A stretch of 64,000 nucleotides of DNA from Thermoleophilia bacterium (GCA_050943595.1 JBMNPM010000001.1:112794-176793), one strand, 5' to 3'; positions 52,070 to 63,812 are shown, counted from the stretch's first letter. Notes: generated by a model not told the origin, from the sequence alone. Translations and numbers: made by a program.

Positions 52070-52504
52070 TCAGGCTTTGACCGCCTCATATGCCTTGGCG
52101 AGCGCTGCGCTGATTGCGTCGGGCGTGGCGTCGGCGTAAGCGATGTGGTAGAAGCTAAACGCGGGGAACTTCTTCTCCAGTTCTCTTCCAAGAGCCCCCA
52201 GCCTTTCGGTCTGCTCCTGTCTTTCGGCGTCGCGATTGATGGTTATGCTCACCATAGCCAACTTCTTGCCGCTCTTGAGGTAGTCGGTATGATTTAGCAG
52301 CCACCAGTACTTCTGGATGCACTGAGACGGAAAGTCGCGCTCATACTCGATCGCCACGATGCCTCCGGGAAACTCGAAGGTCTCATCCGGCTTTGGCGAG
52401 CAGGACAGCTGGGTGCTGATCAGATCCTGCTCAAGGGCGTGTGACGATGGGTTATGCGGCATCAGTGACGAACGAACGATGTTTTCGGCTTCTTTCAGTT
52501 CCAC
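52070..52504 (-). CDS. hypothetical protein (144 aa)
   Basis: GTG start with a GGAGG RBS 6 nt upstream. The upstream promoter has a TATACT -10 and a 2x12-bp direct repeat. No recognisable domain, though 'GIVAIEYERD' is faintly PD-(D/E)xK-like. Confidence 0.45.
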   Translation of the reverse strand: MELKEAENIVRSSLMPHNPSSHALEQDLISTQLSCSPKPDETFEFPGGIVAIEYERDFPSQCIQKYWWLLNHTDYLKSGKKLAMVSITINRDAERQEQTERLGALGRELEKKFPAFSFYHIAYADATPDAISAALAKAYEAVKA

Positions 52505-53296: not shown

Positions 53297-53487
53297 GGGG
53301 CGGTTGGGACATGTCAAGCACGCAGAGTGTCGTGCGCAGCTGTGGTTGGTGCTATGGCAGTGCGGATGGGGGCATCTCTACTTTGCGAAGGCCAAGCGAA
53401 GCTGGGGCGGTAGGATGTAAGGTGAGGTTGCGTATGCCGGCCACAGCCCCTCAGGCTGTGGCCGGCACGCCGCACCAAGGTCGGACT

Positions 53488-54684
53488 CTAGTGCCGGCCG
53501 AGTTCCACCAGGCGCCGAGCAAGAAGCAGCGCATCCACCGGCCAGAGAGACGTGGGCCGGGGGCGGTGTACTCCGGGTCGCCCTGGTTCCGGGCGGCAGG
53601 AGAGGATGGTTTCGCGCCAGCGGGTTGGTATGGCATCGATCCCGTGGACGGCCCCCAAGAGCGCACCGGCGATGGCCGCGTTGGTGTCGGTGTCACCGCC
53701 GCGCATGACGGTGTCCGACACACCCTCCTCTAGGCTGGGGGCATGCAGCAGCTGCCAGAAGGCGTTGCACAAGGCGATGAGCACCCAACCCTGCTGATTC
53801 TCGAAGTCCTCTGGAGGCTCGGTGGCGGCCAGTTCGAGGCAGTCGCGTATTGCGCTGTGCACGGAGGTCGTACTGTCGGGCTGAGTGTGATCCTCTTCGG
53901 TGGCCCAGTTCATCACGAACCGGTAGACCTCCTCCGCCTGCGCACCGGTGGCTACGGCATGGGCTATGGCTACGACGAAGGTTGCACTGGCGTCCCGGCA
54001 GACTCGGTTGGGATGAGTGATGGCTGCATCCTGTCTCGCCAGGTCGGCAGCTGCAGCCGGGGACAGGGTATGGGCGTAGATGCCCAGGGGGCTCACGCGC
54101 ATGAGGGCGCCGTTGGCCTGGCTCTCCCGCGCTGCTGTCGACCTGGCTGTCGCTGCTACGGAGGCCGGGTCTTCTCCACGCTTGAGGGCAGCTACAGCCG
54201 GCATTAGAGCCTGAGTTGTGGCGGCTCCATAGTCGAAGGGGGGTGACGCGTACCAGTGAGCGTAGGCGACCGCCGCCTCGCTCGGATCAAATCGGCCGGC
54301 CCGTATGATGGAGCGCGCCAACATGAGTGCCATCTCTGAGTCGTCGGTCGGCTGTCCAGCGATGAGACGGTGAAGGCCGCCATCGGCCAGGTCACGGATG
54401 CCGTTGGGGTAATGCGTGCGGATGGACGATGTGCTCTGGAGCTCGACGAGGCTTCCGAGAGAATCGCCTGCCAGTTGTCCCAGCATACAGCCTTGAGCGC
54501 GTCCGATGACATCATGTGCCGCCTCCGGTTCGCTCTCGTAGTCTTCCAGCAGCGGGTATAACGTCTCTATATCTGTCTCGATATCGTTTGGGTTGCTCAC
54601 CACGGCGACTCCTTTGTGTTCGATCGGGCCCAGCGGGGAGGCCTGCGCGGCGCTGGCGTGCCGCGCAGGCCTCAATCTTCTCAC
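53488..54684 (-). CDS. ADP-ribosylglycohydrolase-family protein with ~60-aa N-terminal extension
   Basis: 'GQLAGDSLGSLVE', 'ADGGLHRL...TDDSEMAL' and 'GGDTDTNAAIAGALLGAVHG' ARH motifs. Its ATG overlaps the stop of the Fe-S subunit gene (ATGA). Confidence 0.75.
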   Translation of the reverse strand: MRRLRPARHASAAQASPLGPIEHKGVAVVSNPNDIETDIETLYPLLEDYESEPEAAHDVIGRAQGCMLGQLAGDSLGSLVELQSTSSIRTHYPNGIRDLADGGLHRLIAGQPTDDSEMALMLARSIIRAGRFDPSEAAVAYAHWYASPPFDYGAATTQALMPAVAALKRGEDPASVAATARSTAARESQANGALMRVSPLGIYAHTLSPAAAADLARQDAAITHPNRVCRDASATFVVAIAHAVATGAQAEEVYRFVMNWATEEDHTQPDSTTSVHSAIRDCLELAATEPPEDFENQQGWVLIALCNAFWQLLHAPSLEEGVSDTVMRGGDTDTNAAIAGALLGAVHGIDAIPTRWRETILSCRPEPGRPGVHRPRPTSLWPVDALLLARRLVELGRH

Positions 54685-55499
54685 TCAGCCAGGGGGATAT
54701 CGCCCAGATTCACGTCTTTTTCGGTGGTGAGACCCGAGAAGGTCTTGGTAGCGTAGCCGTCGGCAGCGATGGTCAACTCGTAGGCCTCTTCGGCCAGTCC
54801 GTGGAACCAGAAATCGCCGAAGTCGTCGGTGACGGCGGTCTGGGGTGCGGACCCGTCCGGTCCGTGCAGGGTGCAGACGGCTCCGATCACCACCTCTTCT
54901 TCCACCGGATCGTAGACCGTGCCGGCGATGAACTTTTTAGGCATGTTGAGGTAGTAGACCAGGGGCTCAGTGTCGCACTCGGGCTTTAGGGTCTCAGCCT
55001 CGGCGATTTCAGCGGCGAAGTCCTCCGCTTCCCCGAACTGTATGGCCTCGGTGGGGCAGGCATCGACGCACCGCGGCACCTTCCACTCGCCGCTATCAAG
55101 GAGATGGGCGCAGCCGGTGCACTTCTGGGCCAGGTTGAGGTTCTCGTTGAAGAATATGGCGTCGTGAGGGCAGGCGTCCACACAGGCCTTACAGCCGGTG
55201 CACTTCTGCGGGTCGATGATTACCAGTCCATCGTCCCGCCGGTAGATAGCCCCCTCAATGGGGCAGATGGGCATGCAGGGGGCCAGGTGGCAGTGCATGC
55301 AGGGCTGGGGTACGTAGTGCATCTGTACTTTGGGTACCGTGCCTCGTATGTGCTCGGTCAGCCGCATCCAGAACTGTCCCGTGTCGGGCTGGGGCTTGGC
55401 GATCGGTGACCAGTCGTTAGCGACGTGTTCGTCTTTGCATACGATCTGACAGTTGTAGCAACCGTTGCAGAGCCCTATGTCGATCACAAACGCTTTCAT
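54681..55499 (-). CDS. 4Fe-4S cluster beta subunit of a molybdopterin oxidoreductase, with C-terminal carboxypeptidase-regulatory-like (Ig-fold) domain; pyrogallol hydroxytransferase small-subunit-like
   Basis: Multiple CxxCxxCxxxCP ferredoxin motifs. A C-terminal ~80-aa beta-sandwich segment 'GTVYDPVEEEVVIGAVCTLHGPDG...ELTIAADGY'. 272 aa. Confidence 0.75.
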   Translation of the reverse strand: MKAFVIDIGLCNGCYNCQIVCKDEHVANDWSPIAKPQPDTGQFWMRLTEHIRGTVPKVQMHYVPQPCMHCHLAPCMPICPIEGAIYRRDDGLVIIDPQKCTGCKACVDACPHDAIFFNENLNLAQKCTGCAHLLDSGEWKVPRCVDACPTEAIQFGEAEDFAAEIAEAETLKPECDTEPLVYYLNMPKKFIAGTVYDPVEEEVVIGAVCTLHGPDGSAPQTAVTDDFGDFWFHGLAEEAYELTIAADGYATKTFSGLTTEKDVNLGDIPLAE

Positions 55500-58121
55500 C
55501 TAAGCCTTCTCTCCTTCGATCCAGGCGTCGAAACGCAGCCCGGCGGCGTGATCGTATTCTCGGGCGAAGGCTTCCGGGTGGTCTCGGCGCCACTCGTCCC
55601 ACTCCTCCCCCCTGACTTTCTGCACATCCACCAGGTAGCCACTAGTGGCTTGGCCTACCGCGTTCCGGGAGGTCAGCCCGTTGGGAGCGATAGCGTTGAT
55701 GGCGCCGCCACGATCCACACGCTCGCTGATGGGATCGTGGCGCGCCCCGTGGTCGATGTAGACAACTCTGGGCATTATTCTCTCCCAGACACGGGCCCCG
55801 GCAAGGACGATGCCTCGCTCGTTGAAGACCTTGACGACGTCACCATCCTTGATGCCTCGTTCGGCGGCGTCGCGGGGGTTGATCCACAGGGGCTCATACT
55901 TGTAGCCATCGAAGCCCAGCACCTTACACGTGGGTATCTCGCGGGTCCAGGTTATGTCGTCACACTGGGAGTGTGTGCGCCACCGGCCGTGGTTGGACAT
56001 GAGGAGCAGCGGGAACATGTCCGCCCGCTCACTGGAGATGCGCTCGTCGTGGGTCTCGGTTCGTTCGATCCACTTGGGATACGGTGGTCTCTCAGCATCG
56101 TAGGGGAAATGCTGGGCCAGGGCTTCGGAATAGAACTCAAGCTTGCCCGTAGGCGTGGGAAGCGGATGGGCCACCGGGTCGTCGTGGAAGTCTCGCAGAC
56201 CCGGTGTGTCGTCCTCCCAATCATGGGCGGTGGGGAAGACGAAGTACTTCTTGTCCTCAAACTCGTCCCAGGTTATGAAGTCGGTGACTTCCATATCCTG
56301 GAACACCTGCATCTGCAGGTCGCGGGTGGTCATGCCTTCCGTGAATTGCTCCCCTAGACCCAACTTCTTGGCTACTTCGAGGACCACCTCGTAATCGCTC
56401 TTGGACTCGCCGATGGGAGCGATGGCCTGCTCCTGGATCATAATGCTCTGGAAGTGCGGACCTTGTCTGGTGTTGGTGACGATGTCCTCGACCTCTAAGG
56501 TGGTGTTTACCGGTAGGATGAGATCGGCATAGAGACAGTCGTTCTCCAACCAGGGGTGCTGGGCTACGATGCACTCGATCTTGGGGCTGCGGTAGGCCTC
56601 GATAGTCCAGTTGCCGTGGTTCCAGCAGGTGATGCGGCAGGGAGTGTCGGTCCATATCATGTGGATCTCAGTGCCGCCGTCTTCCTTCGGGATGGGGTAG
56701 GTGTATTTGATGAACTGGTCATCGGTGTCTGATTCCTGCCCGCCGCTGCCCATGAAGGTGAGGGGCGGACGGAGAATGGCCTCCTGGATGAGGGTCTTGG
56801 GGATGAGTTGTTTGCCCCAGGCGTCGGAGCTGGTCCGTACTGGGGTCCGTATGCGTTCGCTCAGCGCCGGGTTGAAAAAACGTGCGCTCTTGATGCCCTC
56901 GGCCCGAGGCATGCCGAAGTAGGTTATCTGGCATTGGTGTACGCCCGGGGCGCCCAGCCCCTGCATGCCTAACAGTATGCATTCCAGACGCCCAGGTTCA
57001 TGTGAGAAGGGGCCCCTTATCATGGAGCCGCCGAAGTAGTGCACGATGGACGTGACCTGCTTGGCAAACTTGCGGGCCAGAGCTTTGATGGTCCACGGGG
57101 GTACGCCGCATTTTTTCGTGGCCCAAGATGGTGTCTTGGCGACGCCGTCCTCCTTGCCGAGGACGTAATCCGCCACCTTGTCCATGCCCACGGCATGAGT
57201 GGCCACATACTCCTTGTCCCACGTCCCCTCCGTCAGCCACACGTGGATGATGGCGAGCTGCAGGGCTGCGTCGGTGTTGGGCAAGATGGGGATCCACTTG
57301 CCTGCGTGGATGGCGGCCCCGTAGTTGAGGTCCGGGCAGATATAGACCTGTTCGATCCCGGCTCGGGTCCAGAACTGACAGATACGGGTGGCGTACTGCC
57401 CCGTGAATCCCCACGGTGTCGTCTCCGGGTCACCGCCCCAAAAGAGCAGTAGTTCGCTGTGCTCAGTGATGTCTTTGATGAGATTGTTGGCGGGTGACAT
57501 CATGCCTTGGAACCCCTGGCCCCACACGTGCTTGGCACCCCAGTACCAACCCTCCCAGCTGTCCGGATTCCTCACCTGCTGTGTGAATCCGCCCATCAGG
57601 TCGAGGAGGTGTGCGGAATGACCGTGGGGGGTGTGGATGGTCAGACACTCCCCGTGACCGTCTCCCTGCACTAGGACTCCCAGTGGACCGTATTGCTCGT
57701 GGACCCTGCGAATCTCGGCTGCGATGATGTCGGTGGCTTCGTCCCACGAGATGCGTTGGTACGTGCTCTTCCCGCGATTCTGTGGGTTTCGTTCTCCCTG
57801 TGGGTTCCAGTCCACCCGTTTGAGGGGGTACTTGATGCGATTGGGGGAGAAGGTTCTCTTCTTGTAGGCGAGTGAGAAGGGTGAGGGGAGGGATTTCATC
57901 AATGGCTGCAGCGTTTCGCCGTTGCGCCGCATGGTCCAAGAATTTAAGTGTTCGCGGTCATACTTCCAGTCGTAGTGGAAGGGCCTGATCCGGACGGCCT
58001 TGCCGTCCTTCACGTCCACGGCGCACTCGCCGCCGCCGCCCAGCATGCCGCCGAGGGCTAGAGACCTGAAGACGGTCTTATCCGGCCTGACGTCGGGTAG
58101 TTTCTGCTCTTGGTCGCTCAT
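55500..58121 (-). CDS. molybdopterin-dependent oxidoreductase catalytic subunit, pyrogallol-phloroglucinol transhydroxylase large-subunit-like (no Tat signal, no N-terminal Fe-S motif)
   Basis: 873 aa. 'RISWDEATDIIAAEI' and 'NPDSWEGWYWG' are motifs of the DMSO-reductase-family transhydroxylase branch. Its stop TAG directly abuts the beta-subunit ATG. Confidence 0.7.
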   Translation of the reverse strand: MSDQEQKLPDVRPDKTVFRSLALGGMLGGGGECAVDVKDGKAVRIRPFHYDWKYDREHLNSWTMRRNGETLQPLMKSLPSPFSLAYKKRTFSPNRIKYPLKRVDWNPQGERNPQNRGKSTYQRISWDEATDIIAAEIRRVHEQYGPLGVLVQGDGHGECLTIHTPHGHSAHLLDLMGGFTQQVRNPDSWEGWYWGAKHVWGQGFQGMMSPANNLIKDITEHSELLLFWGGDPETTPWGFTGQYATRICQFWTRAGIEQVYICPDLNYGAAIHAGKWIPILPNTDAALQLAIIHVWLTEGTWDKEYVATHAVGMDKVADYVLGKEDGVAKTPSWATKKCGVPPWTIKALARKFAKQVTSIVHYFGGSMIRGPFSHEPGRLECILLGMQGLGAPGVHQCQITYFGMPRAEGIKSARFFNPALSERIRTPVRTSSDAWGKQLIPKTLIQEAILRPPLTFMGSGGQESDTDDQFIKYTYPIPKEDGGTEIHMIWTDTPCRITCWNHGNWTIEAYRSPKIECIVAQHPWLENDCLYADLILPVNTTLEVEDIVTNTRQGPHFQSIMIQEQAIAPIGESKSDYEVVLEVAKKLGLGEQFTEGMTTRDLQMQVFQDMEVTDFITWDEFEDKKYFVFPTAHDWEDDTPGLRDFHDDPVAHPLPTPTGKLEFYSEALAQHFPYDAERPPYPKWIERTETHDERISSERADMFPLLLMSNHGRWRTHSQCDDITWTREIPTCKVLGFDGYKYEPLWINPRDAAERGIKDGDVVKVFNERGIVLAGARVWERIMPRVVYIDHGARHDPISERVDRGGAINAIAPNGLTSRNAVGQATSGYLVDVQKVRGEEWDEWRRDHPEAFAREYDHAAGLRFDAWIEGEKA

Positions 58122-58432: not shown

Positions 58433-59179
58433 ATGGATCTGGGATTCGAGGGCAAAGTGGCACTCGTTACCGGAGCAGCAAGCCAAATAGGATACGGGAA
58501 AGAGATTGCCCTATTGTTGGCTCGTGAAGGCTGCCGGGTCGTAGTTGCCGATATCGACCCAAAGGGCAGTGCGCAGACGGTGGAGCAAATCGAATCCATG
58601 GGCCGGGAGGCCATCGCCGTTGAGACCGACGTTACCGACCCGACAGCGGTGGACGCCTTGGTTGCTGCGGCGCTGGAGAGGTTTGGTTGCATCGACATCT
58701 TGATTAACAATGCCGGTGGCGTTGTCGGCGGGAAGCCCTTCTTGGAGATGACCAAGGACGAGTGCGCGTTTAACATGGAGGTCAACCTCTACGGGCAGAT
58801 GAATGTCTGCAGAGCGGTCATCCCGGGCATGGTTGCGCGTCGATACGGGCGGGTGGTCAGCATATCGGGGGGGCAGGGCCTTATGTATCTGTCGGCCTAC
58901 GGGGCCTCAAAGGCGGCTATCGAGGCCTTTACGCACTCGCTGGCCGGGGAGGTGGCACAGTTCGGTGTCATTGTGAACGGAGTGCATCCGGGGCTGTCCG
59001 AGACCAAGCTTACCCTCACAACCCCTCGGGAGGTCCTCGAAATGAATGCACAGATGTCTGCACTCAAGAGACTATGCACGGCACAGGATGTGGCTCCACT
59101 GGTGGCCTTCCTGGCCTCGGATCTCTGTAGCTATATGGTGGGACAGTTCGTACATATGGACACCTTTGTCGGTGTGTGA
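58433..59179 (+). CDS. SDR-family oxidoreductase
   Basis: 'TGAASQIGYG' cofactor motif and catalytic 'YGASKAA'. Confidence 0.8.
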   Translation: MDLGFEGKVALVTGAASQIGYGKEIALLLAREGCRVVVADIDPKGSAQTVEQIESMGREAIAVETDVTDPTAVDALVAAALERFGCIDILINNAGGVVGGKPFLEMTKDECAFNMEVNLYGQMNVCRAVIPGMVARRYGRVVSISGGQGLMYLSAYGASKAAIEAFTHSLAGEVAQFGVIVNGVHPGLSETKLTLTTPREVLEMNAQMSALKRLCTAQDVAPLVAFLASDLCSYMVGQFVHMDTFVGV

Positions 59180-60734: not shown

Positions 60735-62201
60735 CTAGAAGCAGAGCTTTCCAGGATTCATGACGTTGTTTGGATCGAAGATACTCTTAACCTTGCGAAG
60801 CGCAATGGTGGTGGCGGCATCCCTTCTATAGGCTGTGTCCGCCCAGGGGCCGTATGGACGGGAGAAGAAGGCCCCTCGAGCCGATAGCGTGTGGACCGCC
60901 GCTTCCGACAGGGCTGCAACTTGTGCTGTTTCCTTGGCATCTGTCTTGTCAAAGAAAATATTGAATTCGCAATGGTAGTTGACGCCCTGCACAAGTGGTT
61001 GCAGGTAGATACCGATGTCGGAGACCTTTTGGTCATGCTTGACGGCAGTCTCTTCCATCACGCAGATGAGTTCGTTGAGTTTCTCGTATATGGTGATGAA
61101 GAAGATGTCGGTGCTGGAGCTGCCGCCCTTGCTTTTCCAGTATGAATCGGTGGAGGGTTCGTGTAGGGTCTTCATCAACTCGAAGGCGGAAACGGTTCCC
61201 ACCGATCGAAGGGGGTTTACTCTGATGGACTGCGCGACGGTGGCGATGTCCTTCTGTAGGTAGGCGATCTTCTCTTCGGGGAAGTAGTTGGTCCCCGAGA
61301 TGGTGTAGAAAAGGATCCAGCGTGGTAGTTCCGACTTGAGTCGTTCGTAGTCGGCAGGCCAATCTCGTGCCATGATGCGGGCCAAATTGGTATCGTTCAG
61401 CAGCAGGCAGTCATCGGCCCAGCGATTCCTGATGAGCCAGTGGGTGAACTCAAGCAGATTGTGGAGCTTGTCTGAGCCGACGAGATAGGGCTCCTCAATG
61501 GTGGGCAGATGTTCGCACCTGACTGTCGCCCAGGTTACGATACCCATGGTTCCCTGGGAACCTTGGATGAGCCTGAGGAAGTCGGCCTGGATGGGGCCGG
61601 CCGCTTCGTTTTGAGCCGCGCCGATGGCCCACTGCTCATCGAGAGTGCCGGGGCCGGCGGCTGAGCCCGTCTTGAAGGTGTCACCGGTGCCGTAGACCAC
61701 CTGGGTGCAGGCCAACGGGTCGGAGATGTCCCAGTGGTACTTGGGCATGATCACCGGCTCTCTCTCCAGTGTGCTGCCTACCACCGACTTGGTCGGGCGT
61801 GGGAGAAGGGGTAGGTTCAATCGCAGTCCGGCATCCCGCGCAGCAGGTATCAACTCCCCAAAGGTGACGCCGGGTTCGACCATGACTATACGGTGCTCGA
61901 GGTCGAGCCGGACGATCTTGTTCAATCTGCGCATGTCGACGATGACAGCGCCGCCGACACTGGGGACCGTGTCACCCCTATAGTGAGGGGGGCCGGAGCT
62001 GACGGGGATGAGGGGGGTGGCCGAGGTATTGGCCCAATTGATTATCTGTTGGACCTCCTCCGTATCCTTGGGTCGCACAACGCACCGGGGCGTAATGGGA
62101 TGGACGAAACTCTCATCGGCCGCGTATCCACTCAGGATATCGGGGTCGTCGGATACATTCTCTGCACCAACAATGTCGGCCAACGCTTGCTTTTCTAACA
62201 T
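60735..62201 (-). CDS. FAD-linked oxidase (GlcD/D-lactate dehydrogenase-like, FAD_binding_4 plus C-terminal domain)
   Basis: 488 aa with FAD-binding PCMH-type domain motifs and a C-terminal 'DPNNVMNPGKL'. Confidence 0.75.
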   Translation of the reverse strand: MLEKQALADIVGAENVSDDPDILSGYAADESFVHPITPRCVVRPKDTEEVQQIINWANTSATPLIPVSSGPPHYRGDTVPSVGGAVIVDMRRLNKIVRLDLEHRIVMVEPGVTFGELIPAARDAGLRLNLPLLPRPTKSVVGSTLEREPVIMPKYHWDISDPLACTQVVYGTGDTFKTGSAAGPGTLDEQWAIGAAQNEAAGPIQADFLRLIQGSQGTMGIVTWATVRCEHLPTIEEPYLVGSDKLHNLLEFTHWLIRNRWADDCLLLNDTNLARIMARDWPADYERLKSELPRWILFYTISGTNYFPEEKIAYLQKDIATVAQSIRVNPLRSVGTVSAFELMKTLHEPSTDSYWKSKGGSSSTDIFFITIYEKLNELICVMEETAVKHDQKVSDIGIYLQPLVQGVNYHCEFNIFFDKTDAKETAQVAALSEAAVHTLSARGAFFSRPYGPWADTAYRRDAATTIALRKVKSIFDPNNVMNPGKLCF

Positions 62202-62246
62202 GTGGCACCTCCCTGGTGACCAACGGTACGGAAATAAGGAAACACC

Positions 62247-63812
62247 CTATTCCTTGGCCGAAATGTACATTGCAGGTTCTGAAACACCCTGGGGGTCGAA
62301 GGTCTTCTTAATCTTGCGTAGCCATAGGTGGTAATTGTCCAAATGCGGACCCCATTTGTCATGCAGTCTGTCTCCCCAGACTGTGACCGGCGCCGTGTAA
62401 CACTTCTCGATGGCGAGGTCTTCGCACTTGTCGGAGAACTCCATCATGTCCTTCCAGCCTGCCCCGTTCGGGTGGGTCATGACCAGCTGTTCGGCGTGTC
62501 CGGTGTGGGCGTTCTCATAGACCATAGCCAAGATACAATCCGGGCCTTCATCGGCGCGGACATTGCCTCTGGCCTGGCATTCCTTCTTCAATTCTGAGGT
62601 GGCAAGCATGAACCTGGTGGATGTCTGGAACATGGCGGAATCACCGATGGAGCCGAGAAAACGCCCTGCGGCCCGGAACGACTCTCTGATGGCAGTGCAG
62701 TTGCGGGTCAGGATCCACAGATACTCGCGCTTCATGTCTTCACGTTCCATCTCACTCCAGAGCACACCGCCCGTCTCGGCGAGGATCTGATCGAACACCT
62801 TCTTGCGATAGGTGAACTCTGGGATGGTAGCTCCTGCGATGACCACCAGGAAACCGGGCCGGCCCGCGCATTCCGCACGCATGCGCTCGAGCAGGTCGAC
62901 CGCCTTGGTGCCGGTGCCGGTCATGGACTCGGCCAGCATAGGAGGAGGCAGCCTGAATATCAGAGTTGCTATCTCGCTCTCACCCATCTTGACGCCGGCC
63001 TCAATCAGCTTGTCCCAGTCTGGGAAGATGGGGTGGTGGACCTCGAAATTCGGCGGCATCTCCTTGAGGCGATAGTCGGGACATATGCCCTCCAGCTCCG
63101 GCTCCGGCGGGCCGAAGTACGGATACAGCTTCACCCCAGCCTTCGTATAGATGCCTAGTCCGCCCATGACGCCCTGCGGACCGTGGATCAGCCCTCGCAG
63201 GGATGGGCCCGGACCGTCGCCACAGAACCATCCGACGCCTGAGCCGAGCGAGCCGAACCTGATGAGTTCACCGTCCGGCGCTACCCATTCGACGGCCAGC
63301 GTGTTGCGGTCTCCACAGCTCGTGCTGACGCCGCCGGGACCGGTACCCTGATGTGCGGTGATGGGCATGGCGCTGGTGTTAGATCCGGCACCAACGCTGT
63401 GGACCGTGAAGCCTTTCTTCATGGCTTCGGACTGCAGCATAGCGCAGGTTACATAGGGCTCTACCACCGCATACATGCTCTTCTCGTTGAGCTCGATGAT
63501 GCGGTTGAAACGGCGCATGTCGACGTGAACGGCATTGTCGTCGAGACCCAATGCGCTGTAGAACCCCCAGCCGTTGCTGATGGCTTTATATCTGACGTTG
63601 TACTTGTTGCATGCTTTGACGATTGCCTGTACTTCCTCCGTCTTGCCCGGCATGAGGATGGCACCGGAGCGGGGGAGGAAGGGGGTGTTGGTGAACAACT
63701 CGGCGCCCCACTGAAAGGCGTAAGAGTCTAATACCGCCGGTTCTTCCGAGATGTATTCCGGTCCGACGATCTCCTCCAGAGCCTTGAATGCGTCTCTGTT
63801 ACTTAGAGCCAT
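62247..63812 (-). CDS. FAD-linked oxidase paralog (VAO/PCMH-type flavoprotein)
   Basis: 521 aa. A FAD_binding_4-like N-terminal half. GGAGGGG RBS upstream. Confidence 0.7.
   Translation of the reverse strand: MALSNRDAFKALEEIVGPEYISEEPAVLDSYAFQWGAELFTNTPFLPRSGAILMPGKTEEVQAIVKACNKYNVRYKAISNGWGFYSALGLDDNAVHVDMRRFNRIIELNEKSMYAVVEPYVTCAMLQSEAMKKGFTVHSVGAGSNTSAMPITAHQGTGPGGVSTSCGDRNTLAVEWVAPDGELIRFGSLGSGVGWFCGDGPGPSLRGLIHGPQGVMGGLGIYTKAGVKLYPYFGPPEPELEGICPDYRLKEMPPNFEVHHPIFPDWDKLIEAGVKMGESEIATLIFRLPPPMLAESMTGTGTKAVDLLERMRAECAGRPGFLVVIAGATIPEFTYRKKVFDQILAETGGVLWSEMEREDMKREYLWILTRNCTAIRESFRAAGRFLGSIGDSAMFQTSTRFMLATSELKKECQARGNVRADEGPDCILAMVYENAHTGHAEQLVMTHPNGAGWKDMMEFSDKCEDLAIEKCYTAPVTVWGDRLHDKWGPHLDNYHLWLRKIKKTFDPQGVSEPAMYISAKE

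What the first reader, a model, noticed from the sequence alone, without database searches (positions are those of the whole stretch)
53488..58121. Pyrogallol-phloroglucinol-transhydroxylase-like Mo enzyme (873-aa alpha, 272-aa beta with Ig-like C-domain) translationally coupled to an ADP-ribosylglycohydrolase gene
The alpha subunit lacks a Tat signal and an N-terminal Fe-S motif. It has transhydroxylase-branch motifs (RISWDEATD, NPDSWEGW). The beta subunit has three ferredoxin-type clusters plus a C-terminal beta-sandwich domain. Both lengths almost exactly match the Pelobacter transhydroxylase subunits, as far as I recall. The alpha stop TAG abuts the beta ATG. The beta stop overlaps the ATG of an ARH-family (DraG-like) protein with a ~60-aa N-terminal extension. 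An ARH co-translated with a cytoplasmic Mo hydroxytransferase is not a standard arrangement. It could mean regulation of the enzyme by reversible ADP-ribosylation, as in DraG with nitrogenase, or a non-canonical hydrolase role for the ARH fold in polyphenol metabolism. A divergently transcribed SDR (58433-59179) could be a phloroglucinol-reductase-type partner.
Basis: partly seen in the sequence, partly recalled or inferred. Interest (0 to 1): 0.65.

Follow-up and report, generated by a model that had tools for sequence, protein, structure and literature searches.

The report
Transhydroxylase-like molybdenum enzyme beside unrelated ARH
The two-subunit molybdenum enzyme is real and belongs to a widespread, uncharacterised sister clade of the Pelobacter pyrogallol transhydroxylase. 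The ADP-ribosylglycohydrolase gene behind it is not translationally coupled to it and is almost never its neighbour in other genomes, so the proposed regulatory pairing is not supported.

Summary
The alpha gene (55500-58121, minus strand, 873 aa) and beta gene (54681-55499, minus strand, 272 aa) are confirmed. Their best solved-structure matches are the Pelobacter transhydroxylase subunits (E 2e-124 and 8e-53). Alpha is only 36-37% identical to that enzyme. It belongs to a separate clade (60-84% identity within the clade) found in Dehalococcoidia, Thermoleophilia, Desulfobacterota and other groups. This clade keeps the Ser/Asp/His molybdenum site. It lacks Tyr404 and the Tyr560 insertion, both invariant in the true transhydroxylase clade. 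Its beta subunit has four complete Fe-S cysteine motifs, not three.

The ARH coupling fails. The overlapping start codon is GTG, not ATG, and no homologue has anything matching the 27-28 residues it would add. The supported start is GTG 54603 or 54600, behind an AAGGAG site, 77-80 nt after the beta stop. A perfect 14-bp GC hairpin fills that gap at the position where orthologous operons carry terminators. None of 80 alpha-centred loci has an ARH. Only 1 of 84 ARH-centred loci has a transhydroxylase-family enzyme. The ARH's recurrent partners are ARPP-1, a metallophosphatase and an XRE regulator. That single second adjacency, in another Thermoleophilia MAG, remains unexplained. Verdict: an ordinary new member of a known family, of low interest.

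The parts
55500..58121 (-). Mo-bisPGD catalytic subunit (alpha, 873 aa) of the RhL/PgtL (transhydroxylase) family, window clade. It is predicted cytoplasmic, with no Tat signal and no N-terminal Fe-S domain.
   Evidence: ORF. Pfam domains AhtL-like_1st, Molybdopterin and Molydop_binding. Best PDB match 4v4c_A, E 2e-124. It keeps His156 and Asp187-Ser188-Trp189, has Arg406 in place of Tyr404, and lacks the Tyr560 insertion. NCBI accession MGI5939247.1.
54681..55499 (-). Fe-S subunit (beta, 272 aa) with four complete Cys motifs and a C-terminal CarboxypepD_reg beta-sandwich domain. Its ATG directly abuts the alpha TAG.
   Evidence: Best PDB match 4v4c_B, E 8e-53. 16 Cys against 12 in the transhydroxylase beta.
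54638..54673 (-). Perfect 14-bp GC stem with an 8-nt loop, starting 8 nt after the beta stop. It is the probable terminator or attenuator of the alpha-beta operon and has no U-tract.
   Evidence: Sequence. Fold of the 111-nt stretch gives -50.3 kcal/mol, z = -3.0. It is one of only 9 perfect hairpins with stems of at least 10 bp in the 64 kb. Orthologous loci carry hairpin terminators at the same position in 5 of 5 cases.
54609..54614 (-). AAGGAG ribosome-binding site for the ARH gene, 5 nt upstream of GTG 54603.
   Evidence: Sequence read directly.
53488..54603 (-). ADP-ribosylglycohydrolase (ARH/ARG family, 370-371 aa), a separate gene whose metal-binding motifs are intact.
   Evidence: Pfam PF03747, E 1e-65. 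Start supported by 19 homologues and by the NCBI and IMG gene models. The GDSLG..E, TDD and GGDTDT motifs align to DraG and TTHA ARH.
53435..53467 (-). Perfect 14-bp GC hairpin starting 21 nt after the ARH stop, lying between the convergent ARH and YGGT genes. Probable terminator.
58433..59179 (+). Divergently transcribed classical SDR (248 aa). It is a neighbour and is not shown to be a functional partner.
   Evidence: Pfam adh_short hits. The best PDB hits are FabG-type enzymes. A close homologue lies near alpha only in L063.

Best explanation
The alpha and beta genes form a self-contained two-gene operon. It encodes a cytoplasmic heterodimeric Mo-bisPGD enzyme of the RhL/PgtL (resorcinol hydroxylase / pyrogallol transhydroxylase) family.

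Shown: the enzyme belongs to a large clade distinct from the bona fide transhydroxylase. The clade keeps the Ser Mo ligand and the neighbouring Asp, His and Trp. It replaces the Tyr404 region with an invariant Arg, lacks the loop carrying Tyr560, and pairs with a beta subunit that has four complete [4Fe-4S] motifs.

Inferred: it acts on a phenolic substrate other than pyrogallol, possibly a carboxylated one. It carries out a net redox hydroxylation or dehydroxylation, passing electrons through the four-cluster beta subunit, rather than a redox-neutral hydroxyl transfer.

The downstream ARH is a separate gene with its own ribosome-binding site and start codon. It is probably catalytically active. 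It belongs to an ARH clade whose usual partners are ARPP-1, a metallophosphatase and an XRE regulator. Its position behind beta in this genome is most likely a juxtaposition without functional meaning. Some read-through transcription across the hairpin cannot be excluded.
For: Family assignment.

Clade separation and residues: the window clade is 60-84% identical within itself and 34-38% identical to the transhydroxylase. His144, Asp174, Ser175 and Trp176 are kept. Tyr404 and Tyr560 are absent in 21 of 21 window-clade sequences and present in all 19 transhydroxylase-side sequences (TH itself, 14 AthL-clade proteins and 4 alpha2 paralogues). Arg406 is invariant in the window clade.

Beta subunit: window-clade beta subunits have 16-19 Cys in their first 170 residues (16 in the window's, forming four motifs) and transhydroxylase-side ones 12-13.

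Operon limits: only alpha and beta are conserved across 80 loci. A hairpin terminator follows beta in 5 of 5 orthologous loci and lies at the same place in the window.

ARH start.

No synteny: 0 of 80 alpha-centred loci, 1 of 84 ARH-centred loci, and none.

ARH partners: ARPP-1, Metallophos and HTH genes recur. Pfam itself defines PF20208 as an ARG-associated domain.

Substrate hints: TRAP transporters lie next to alpha in 13 of 80 loci. IclR regulators and SDR, BKACE and 3-hydroxyacyl-CoA-dehydrogenase genes, which resemble the phloroglucinol pathway, lie near relatives (pathway from PMC10470551).
Against: No member of the window clade has been characterised, as far as I could establish, so the chemistry is inferred. 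I could not obtain the RhL or DbhL sequences, so I cannot say whether either falls in this clade.

The catalytic roles of Tyr404 and Tyr560 rest on my recollection of Messerschmidt et al. 2004, which I could not re-read here. Only their conservation pattern is a tool result.

The hairpin lacks a U-tract. Only 35 nt separate it from the ARH start, which leaves little room for an independent promoter, so the ARH may depend on read-through from alpha-beta.

A second Thermoleophilia MAG (L085) also has an orthologous ARH (60% identity) directly beside a transhydroxylase-family operon.
Confidence: 0.75

Rival explanations
1. One reading: the ARH is a functional partner of the Mo enzyme. It would either reverse a regulatory ADP-ribosylation of the enzyme, as DraG does for nitrogenase, or use the ARH fold for a hydrolytic step in polyphenol metabolism.
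For: The ARH is on the same strand, 77-80 nt downstream of beta, with little room for its own promoter. Its metal-binding motifs are intact. A second, independent adjacency exists in L085, where an orthologous ARH (60% identity) lies divergently 132 nt from an AthL-clade alpha-beta operon. With roughly 6-10 family operons per genome, I estimate a chance of only about 2-6% of seeing one such case among the ~11 other close ARH loci. This is my own rough estimate, not a tool result.
Against: There is no translational coupling. A hairpin sits at the position of the operon terminator. 0 of 80 alpha-centred loci and 1 of 84 ARH-centred loci show the pairing. The closest alpha orthologues (83-84% identity) and the closest ARH homologues (75-77%) are never paired. 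The two known adjacencies differ in orientation and in alpha clade and share no other genes. No gene next to the operon (YGGT, orf144, SDR, CHRD-domain protein, orf129, two FAD-binding oxidoreductases) is an ADP-ribosyltransferase by Pfam. The ARH clade has its own conserved partners (ARPP-1, Metallophos, XRE HTH).
Confidence: 0.08
2. The alpha-beta enzyme is a true pyrogallol-phloroglucinol transhydroxylase, orthologous in function to Pelobacter AthLS. Homologues in Chloroflexi genomes have been annotated this way since 2013.
For: The best solved-structure hits for both subunits are the transhydroxylase, with the same lengths and domain order. The Ser/Asp/His Mo site is kept. Published genome papers give homologues this annotation (PMC3971608, PMC4959651). 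Genes resembling the phloroglucinol pathway lie near some relatives.
Against: Alpha is 36-37% identical to the transhydroxylase, while a populous genuine clade is 61-96% identical and includes a Thermoleophilia member at 76%. Tyr404 and the Tyr560 loop are missing in every clade member. Beta has four Fe-S cluster motifs instead of three. In several Actinomycetota, the window-clade operon sits beside a second alpha2-beta2 pair that keeps the transhydroxylase residues, which suggests two different activities. The 64-kb window has no homologues of the BKACE, 3-hydroxyacyl-CoA dehydrogenase, thiolase or IclR genes seen near relatives.
Confidence: 0.12
3. The ARH is co-transcribed with alpha-beta by read-through of a weak terminator that lacks a U-tract. 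It is an operon passenger without a mechanistic link to the enzyme.
For: The hairpin lacks a T-run, and only 35 nt separate it from the ARH start. No promoter-like site was found in the gap.
Against: The promoter scan covers only sigma-70 consensus sites. The hairpin after the ARH itself also lacks a T-run, so hairpins of this kind probably do terminate transcription in this genome. A promoter inside the 3' end of beta is not excluded.
Confidence: 0.3

Closest known systems
Pyrogallol-phloroglucinol transhydroxylase AthL/AthB (PgtL) of Pelobacter acidigallici, PDB 4v4c
   Same: Both are cytoplasmic alpha-beta Mo-bisPGD enzymes. Alpha is about 875 aa, has an AhtL-like first domain and no Fe-S cluster. 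The Ser ligand in NPDSWEGW and the neighbouring His and Asp are shared. Beta is a polyferredoxin with a C-terminal Ig-like domain, and the subunit lengths are almost identical.
   Different: Alpha is only 36-37% identical. Tyr404 is replaced by an invariant Arg, the Tyr560 loop is absent, His145 is Gly, Arg153 is Pro and Trp354 is Gly. Beta has four Cys motifs instead of three. No phloroglucinol-pathway genes lie in the window.
Resorcinol hydroxylase RhLS (Azoarcus/Aromatoleum anaerobium) and 3,5-dihydroxybenzoate hydroxylase DbhLS (Thauera aromatica AR-1)
   Same: They belong to the same RhL/PgtL family of the MopB superfamily (PMC10100899). They are net-redox, water-dependent hydroxylases of phenols, which fits a four-cluster beta subunit. 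From my own knowledge, the DbhLS cluster includes a TRAP transporter, and TRAP transporters adjoin 13 of the 80 loci here.
   Different: Those enzymes come from nitrate-reducing Betaproteobacteria and are reported to be membrane-associated (my own knowledge).
DraG/DraT reversible ADP-ribosylation of nitrogenase reductase
   Same: The ARH has the DraG fold and the conserved metal-binding TDD and GGDxDT motifs. DraG is its best solved-structure match, E 8.5e-24.
   Different: It scores 120 bits against a cutoff of 337 for the DraG equivalog model. No DraT-like transferase lies nearby, there is no conserved linkage to the proposed target, and there is no coupling.
ARG-ARPP-1 gene neighbourhoods (Pfam PF20208, 'ARG and Rhodanese-Phosphatase-superfamily-associated Protein')
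   Same: The window's ARH belongs to the ARH clade whose close members sit beside or within a few kb of ARPP-1, a metallophosphatase and an XRE HTH gene.
   Different: The 64-kb window has no ARPP-1 homologue. Here the ARH is a solo copy.

Membership tests
Pyrogallol-phloroglucinol transhydroxylase (AthL/AthB, sensu stricto) | Alpha-beta architecture: an alpha of about 875 aa without Tat signal or Fe-S domain and with an AhtL-like first domain, and a beta polyferredoxin with a C-terminal Ig-like domain | tested here: met
Pyrogallol-phloroglucinol transhydroxylase (AthL/AthB, sensu stricto) | Ser175 Mo ligand with Asp174 and His144 | tested here: met
   His156, Asp187 and Ser188 align to them.
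Pyrogallol-phloroglucinol transhydroxylase (AthL/AthB, sensu stricto) | Tyr404 and Tyr560. Both are invariant in all 19 transhydroxylase-side sequences (TH, 14 AthL-clade proteins, 4 alpha2 paralogues). Their catalytic and co-substrate roles are from my memory of Messerschmidt et al. 2004. | tested here: not met
   Arg406 takes the place of Tyr404, and the 9-residue loop carrying Tyr560 is absent. The same holds in 21 of 21 window-clade sequences.
Pyrogallol-phloroglucinol transhydroxylase (AthL/AthB, sensu stricto) | Beta subunit with three [4Fe-4S] clusters (12 Cys) | tested here: not met
   The window beta has 16 Cys in four complete motifs, and all the other window-clade beta subunits aligned have 16-19 Cys in their first 170 residues.
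Pyrogallol-phloroglucinol transhydroxylase (AthL/AthB, sensu stricto) | Orthologue-level similarity to the Pelobacter enzyme (the genuine clade is 61-96% identical) | tested here: not met
   36-37% identity.
Pyrogallol-phloroglucinol transhydroxylase (AthL/AthB, sensu stricto) | Catalysis of pyrogallol-to-phloroglucinol conversion with a tetrahydroxybenzene co-substrate | not testable with these tools
   Needs an enzyme assay.
RhL/PgtL family of the MopB (DMSO reductase) superfamily | Ser-coordinating catalytic subunit that is closest to PgtL and clearly separated from TorA/DorA, DmsA, EbdA and NarG | tested here: met
   Bit scores: 420 for AthL, about 230-240 for TorA/DorA, 73 for EbdA and 45 for NarG. 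It is below every NCBIfam cutoff for the other families.
DraG-type regulatory ARH acting on the adjacent enzyme | Active ARH fold with conserved metal-binding residues | tested here: met
   The GDSLG..E, TDD and GGDTDT motifs are conserved.
DraG-type regulatory ARH acting on the adjacent enzyme | Conserved genomic linkage between the ARH and its target enzyme | tested here: not met
   0 of 80 alpha-centred loci and 1 of 84 ARH-centred loci.
DraG-type regulatory ARH acting on the adjacent enzyme | Partner ADP-ribosyltransferase (DraT-like) | tested here: inconclusive
   None among the Pfam-scanned neighbours between 52 and 64 kb. The rest of the genome was not searched.
DraG-type regulatory ARH acting on the adjacent enzyme | Translational coupling (stop/start overlap) with beta | tested here: not met
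   The supported start is 77-80 nt downstream.
ARG-ARPP-1 module | ARH encoded beside an ARPP-1 (PF20208) gene | tested here: not met
   No ARPP-1 homologue in the window by tblastn. It is present in 6 of the 84 ARH-centred loci by tblastn (L081, L082, L085, L086, L087, L099) and, by Pfam, also in L169 and L170.

The most novel reading that the evidence does not exclude
In Thermoleophilia, an ARH of the ARPP-1-associated clade has been recruited twice, independently, next to transhydroxylase-family Mo enzymes. In the window it lies in tandem behind a window-clade operon. In L085 it lies divergently from an AthL-clade operon. The ARH would then act on these enzymes or their pathway, for example by removing a regulatory ADP-ribose from the Mo enzyme.
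Probability: 0.07. Interest if true: 0.6.

Novelty: new member of a known kind. Interest (0 to 1): 0.2.

Why it matters
As found, it matters little. Transhydroxylase-like alpha-beta genes have been noted in Chloroflexi and related MAGs since 2013, and the ARH pairing that made the finding stand out does not hold.

There is one useful by-product. The clade is very widespread in Dehalococcoidia, Thermoleophilia and Desulfobacterota, and it is routinely annotated as pyrogallol hydroxytransferase or TMAO reductase. Yet it lacks the two tyrosines conserved in the real transhydroxylase clade and carries a four-cluster electron-transfer subunit. Metabolic reconstructions that read these genes as 'pyrogallol fermentation' may therefore be wrong. 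The clade is a reasonable target for biochemical characterisation in anaerobic polyphenol and lignin-monomer turnover.

Tried and rejected
- An exact look-up of alpha in the contig index found nothing. The source was identified through the homology search instead.
- I tried to re-read the transhydroxylase structure paper, the Hille review and the resorcinol hydroxylase paper (PMC511022, PMC4080432, PMC1913315). None is held.
- Residue-name literature searches gave nothing useful.
- I looked for a Moco riboswitch or any other Rfam element upstream of alpha. There is none.
- PADLOC gave no defence-system match for the ARH, ARPP-1, orf144 or orf129.
- GC and GC3 composition does not single out the ARH as foreign.
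- The beta-ARH hairpin arm is not a repeated element in the window.
- The repeat finder missed the short-loop hairpins, so I scanned for them with a script.
- I tried to place RhL by inspecting the proteobacterial loci. ORF calling in that high-GC DNA was too noisy to be informative.
- Test of the phloroglucinol-reductase idea for the SDR: only generic FabG-like matches came up.
- Shared synteny between the window and L085: nothing beyond alpha, beta and ARH.

Full report
**Observation**

The three ORFs exist as described.
- Alpha: 55500-58121, minus strand, 873 aa, ATG start behind a GGAAGG ribosome-binding site.
- Beta: 54681-55499, 272 aa. Its ATG directly follows the alpha TAG.
- A third ORF whose longest reading runs 53488-54684.

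Pfam finds AhtL-like_1st, Molybdopterin and Molydop_binding domains in alpha. In beta it finds the Fer4 families plus a C-terminal CarboxypepD_reg domain. In the third ORF it finds ADP_ribosyl_GH (E 1e-65). The divergent gene at 58433-59179 is a classical SDR. Alpha has no twin-arginine motif and no N-terminal Cys cluster. The window comes from a 248-kb contig of a Thermoleophilia MAG, with NCBI proteins MGI5939247.1 (alpha) and MGI5939245.1 (ARH).

**What the Mo enzyme is**

Among solved structures, both subunits match the Pelobacter acidigallici pyrogallol hydroxytransferase best. Alpha matches chain A with E 2e-124 (420 bits) and beta matches chain B with E 8e-53. The next matches for alpha are TorA/DorA at about 230-240 bits, EbdA at 73 and NarG at 45. 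No NCBIfam equivalog cutoff is reached. The enzyme therefore sits on the RhL/PgtL branch of the MopB superfamily (family named in PMC10100899).

It is not an orthologue of the transhydroxylase, though. Identity to the transhydroxylase is 36-37%. A search with the transhydroxylase sequence itself finds a large genuine clade at 61-96% identity, which includes a Thermoleophilia protein at 76%. The window protein belongs to a different, equally large clade. Its members are 56-84% identical to it and occur in Dehalococcoidia, Thermoleophilia and other Actinomycetota, Desulfobacterota, Korobacteraceae, Firmicutes and some Proteobacteria, often in several copies per genome.

I aligned 21 window-clade sequences with 19 transhydroxylase-side sequences (TH itself, 14 AthL-clade proteins and 4 'alpha2' paralogues).
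- Both groups keep His144, Asp174, Ser175 (the Mo ligand), Trp176 and Glu177.
- Every window-clade sequence lacks Tyr404. It reads GMPR-AEG, with an invariant Arg406, where the other group reads FPGYAEG.
- Every window-clade sequence also lacks the 9-residue SEFANCSGY loop that carries Tyr560.
- His145 is Gly, Arg153 is Pro and Trp354 is Gly.
- In all, 35 positions discriminate the two groups.

That Tyr404 and Tyr560 are catalytic or co-substrate residues is my recollection of Messerschmidt et al. 2004, which I could not re-read. The conservation pattern itself is a computed result.

**The beta subunit**

The window beta has 16 Cys in four complete motifs: CNGCYNCQIVC, CMHCHLAPCMPICP, CTGCKACVDACP and CTGCAHLL...RCVDACP. 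All the other window-clade beta subunits I aligned also have 16-19 Cys in their first 170 residues. The transhydroxylase beta, an AthL-clade beta and the alpha2-associated betas have lost the fourth Cys of motif II and the first three of motif III, leaving 12-13 Cys, which corresponds to three clusters. A full four-cluster wire is what electron-transferring relatives such as PsrB, NrfC and DmsB carry. Together with the altered active site, this suggests net redox chemistry (hydroxylation or dehydroxylation) rather than redox-neutral hydroxyl transfer. That step is an inference.

**Genomic context of the clade**

Across 80 species-representative loci with 10-kb flanks, only alpha and beta are consistently conserved together. 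Recurrent but not universal neighbours are:
- TRAP transporter genes (DctM in 13 loci) and IclR regulators (11 loci);
- in several Actinomycetota, a divergently transcribed second alpha2-beta2 pair that keeps the transhydroxylase residues, plus LarA-like, B3_4 and thiolase genes;
- in L008 and L014, an SDR-BKACE-3-hydroxyacyl-CoA dehydrogenase set. This resembles three of the four phloroglucinol-pathway enzymes described in PMC10470551.

The window contains none of these companions in its 64 kb. It does share a pair of FAD_binding_4 oxidoreductases (60735-63812) with L077, at 76-78% identity, where they also lie near a window-clade paralogue. The invariant Arg and the TRAP association make a carboxylated phenol a reasonable guess for the substrate. 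This is speculation.

**The ARH coupling**

Four independent lines of evidence argue against it.

1. The start codon. The codon overlapping the beta TGA is GTG (GAGTGA), not ATG. The 27-28 residues it would add (VRRLRPARHASAAQASPLGPIEHKGVAV) have no counterpart in any of the 19 homologues aligned. All of them begin within a few residues of window GTG 54603/54600, just ahead of the conserved DIETLYPLLE motif. Homologues cover only about 90% of the 398-aa ORF. NCBI and IMG call proteins of 370 and 371 aa. An AAGGAG site lies 5 nt upstream of GTG 54603. The beta-ARH gap is therefore 77-80 nt.

2. The hairpin. Those 'extra codons' encode a perfect 14-bp GC hairpin (54638-54673) that starts 8 nt after the beta stop. 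The 111-nt stretch around it folds at -50.3 kcal/mol with z = -3.0. Only nine perfect hairpins with stems of at least 10 bp occur in the 64 kb. Four of them sit immediately after the last gene of a transcription unit: beta, the ARH, tRNA-Lys and the FAD oxidoreductase pair. In 5 of 5 orthologous loci examined, beta is likewise followed by a strong hairpin, there with a T-run. The alpha-beta pair is thus a self-contained operon throughout the family.

3. No ARH near alpha. tblastn with the ARH finds it in 0 of 80 alpha-centred loci. The closest alpha orthologues (83-84% identity; L001, L083) have a convergent Mo-oxidoreductase gene downstream of beta instead.

4. No alpha near the ARH. In 84 ARH-centred loci (631 kb in total, 38 of them at least 6 kb long), only one has a transhydroxylase-family gene. 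Six further look-ups found none. The closest ARH homologues (75-77% identity) lie among AbiE, TelA, HicAB and ParE genes. The recurrent partners of this ARH clade are ARPP-1, a metallophosphatase and an XRE-type HTH regulator. Pfam defines ARPP-1 (PF20208) as an 'ARG and Rhodanese-Phosphatase-superfamily-associated' domain. No ARPP-1 homologue is in the window. Many more distant relatives of the ARH are fused to an inositol-monophosphatase domain.

The ARH itself looks catalytically competent. Its GDSLG..E, TDD and GGDTDT motifs align with DraG and other solved ARHs. It scores far below the DraG equivalog cutoff, however (120 against 337 bits).

**What remains unexplained**

In L085, a different Thermoleophilia MAG (JAOAGT010000006.1), an ARH 60% identical to the window's lies 132 nt from, and divergent to, an alpha-beta operon. 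That alpha is of the true AthL clade, 76% identical to the transhydroxylase. The two adjacencies differ in orientation and in alpha clade, and they share no other genes, so they are independent events. These genomes carry perhaps 6-10 such operons; one MAG contributes at least six copies in L047, L053 and L077. On that basis I estimate a 2-6% chance of seeing one such case among about 11 other close ARH loci. That is suggestive but weak, and it was computed after the fact.

In addition, only 35 nt separate the hairpin from the ARH start. No promoter-like site was found there, although the scan covers only sigma-70 consensus sites. Read-through transcription is therefore possible.

I put the probability of a real functional link at about 0.07.

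**The SDR**

It is a generic FabG-like SDR. No phloroglucinol reductase appears among its 60 best solved-structure matches. Only one of the 80 loci (L063) has a close homologue (42% identity) next to alpha. Nothing supports a specific phloroglucinol-reductase role.

**Comparison with what is known, and verdict**

Transhydroxylase-like alpha-beta genes in Chloroflexi and Dehalococcoidia have been reported and interpreted as pyrogallol hydroxytransferases since 2013 (PMC3971608, PMC4959651). The window gene pair is a new member of that known, uncharacterised clade.

The one point worth carrying forward is that this clade differs from the true transhydroxylase at conserved active-site positions and in Fe-S content, so its routine annotation is probably wrong. 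Interest is low (0.2).

Noticed in passing
L085:6357-11110 (JAOAGT010000006.1, Thermoleophilia MAG): A second adjacency of an ARH and a transhydroxylase-family enzyme. An ARH 60% identical to the window's (MCX8033429.1) is divergent to, and 132 nt from, an AthL-clade alpha (MCX8033428.1, 76% identical to the Pelobacter enzyme) plus its beta. An ARPP-1 gene lies 9 kb away.
   Followed up: partly
L081, L082, L086, L169, L170, L175 (ARH loci): The ARH clade recurs in a module of metallophosphatase, ARPP-1 (PF20208), XRE-type HTH and ARH genes, often among toxin-antitoxin genes (AbiE, HicAB, ParE, HigB). None of these proteins matches PADLOC. Many more distant ARH relatives are fused to an inositol-monophosphatase domain (PF00459).
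   Followed up: partly
L008, L009, L013, L014, L039, L083: In Actinomycetota, the window-clade alpha-beta operon is paired divergently, across an IclR gene, with a second alpha2-beta2 pair of about 840 aa. That pair is 49-50% identical to the transhydroxylase, keeps Tyr404 and Tyr560, and has a three-cluster beta. LarA-like, B3_4 and thiolase genes lie alongside. L008 and L014 also carry an SDR-BKACE-3-hydroxyacyl-CoA-dehydrogenase set that resembles the phloroglucinol pathway.
   Followed up: partly
window:60735-63812 (-): Two tandem FAD_binding_4 (VAO/GlcD-type) oxidoreductases of 488 and 521 aa. L077 has a pair 76-78% identical to them, also near a window-clade alpha paralogue. They may belong to the same phenolic-compound metabolism.
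   Followed up: partly
window:60675-60718: A perfect 20-bp hairpin with a 4-nt loop, the longest in the window. It lies between the convergent ends of the FAD oxidoreductase operon and orf129. Probable bidirectional terminator.
   Followed up: no
window:60228-60617 (+): orf129 has an unusually low GC content (0.47, against 0.60 for the window) and no Pfam or PADLOC match. It may be foreign DNA or may not be a real gene.
   Followed up: partly
window:58290-58318: A tandem direct repeat, CCGAACGAATGGTC twice with a period of 15 nt, in the intergenic region between the divergent SDR and alpha genes. It could be a regulator binding site.
   Followed up: no
window:51886-51996: tRNA-Lys(UUU) followed immediately by a 16-bp-stem hairpin flanked by A6 and T6 runs (a bidirectional terminator). 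The unannotated orf144 (52070-52504, minus strand) next to it has no family match.
   Followed up: partly
window:9469-9571 (+): TPP riboswitch (Rfam RF00059, 70.8 bits).
   Followed up: no
window:46813-51757 (+): Two tandem paralogous membrane proteins of 795 and 803 aa. Each has a multi-pass N-terminal region followed by GGDEF-like and EAL-like sequence, judged by eye from the translations. No domain search was run.
   Followed up: no
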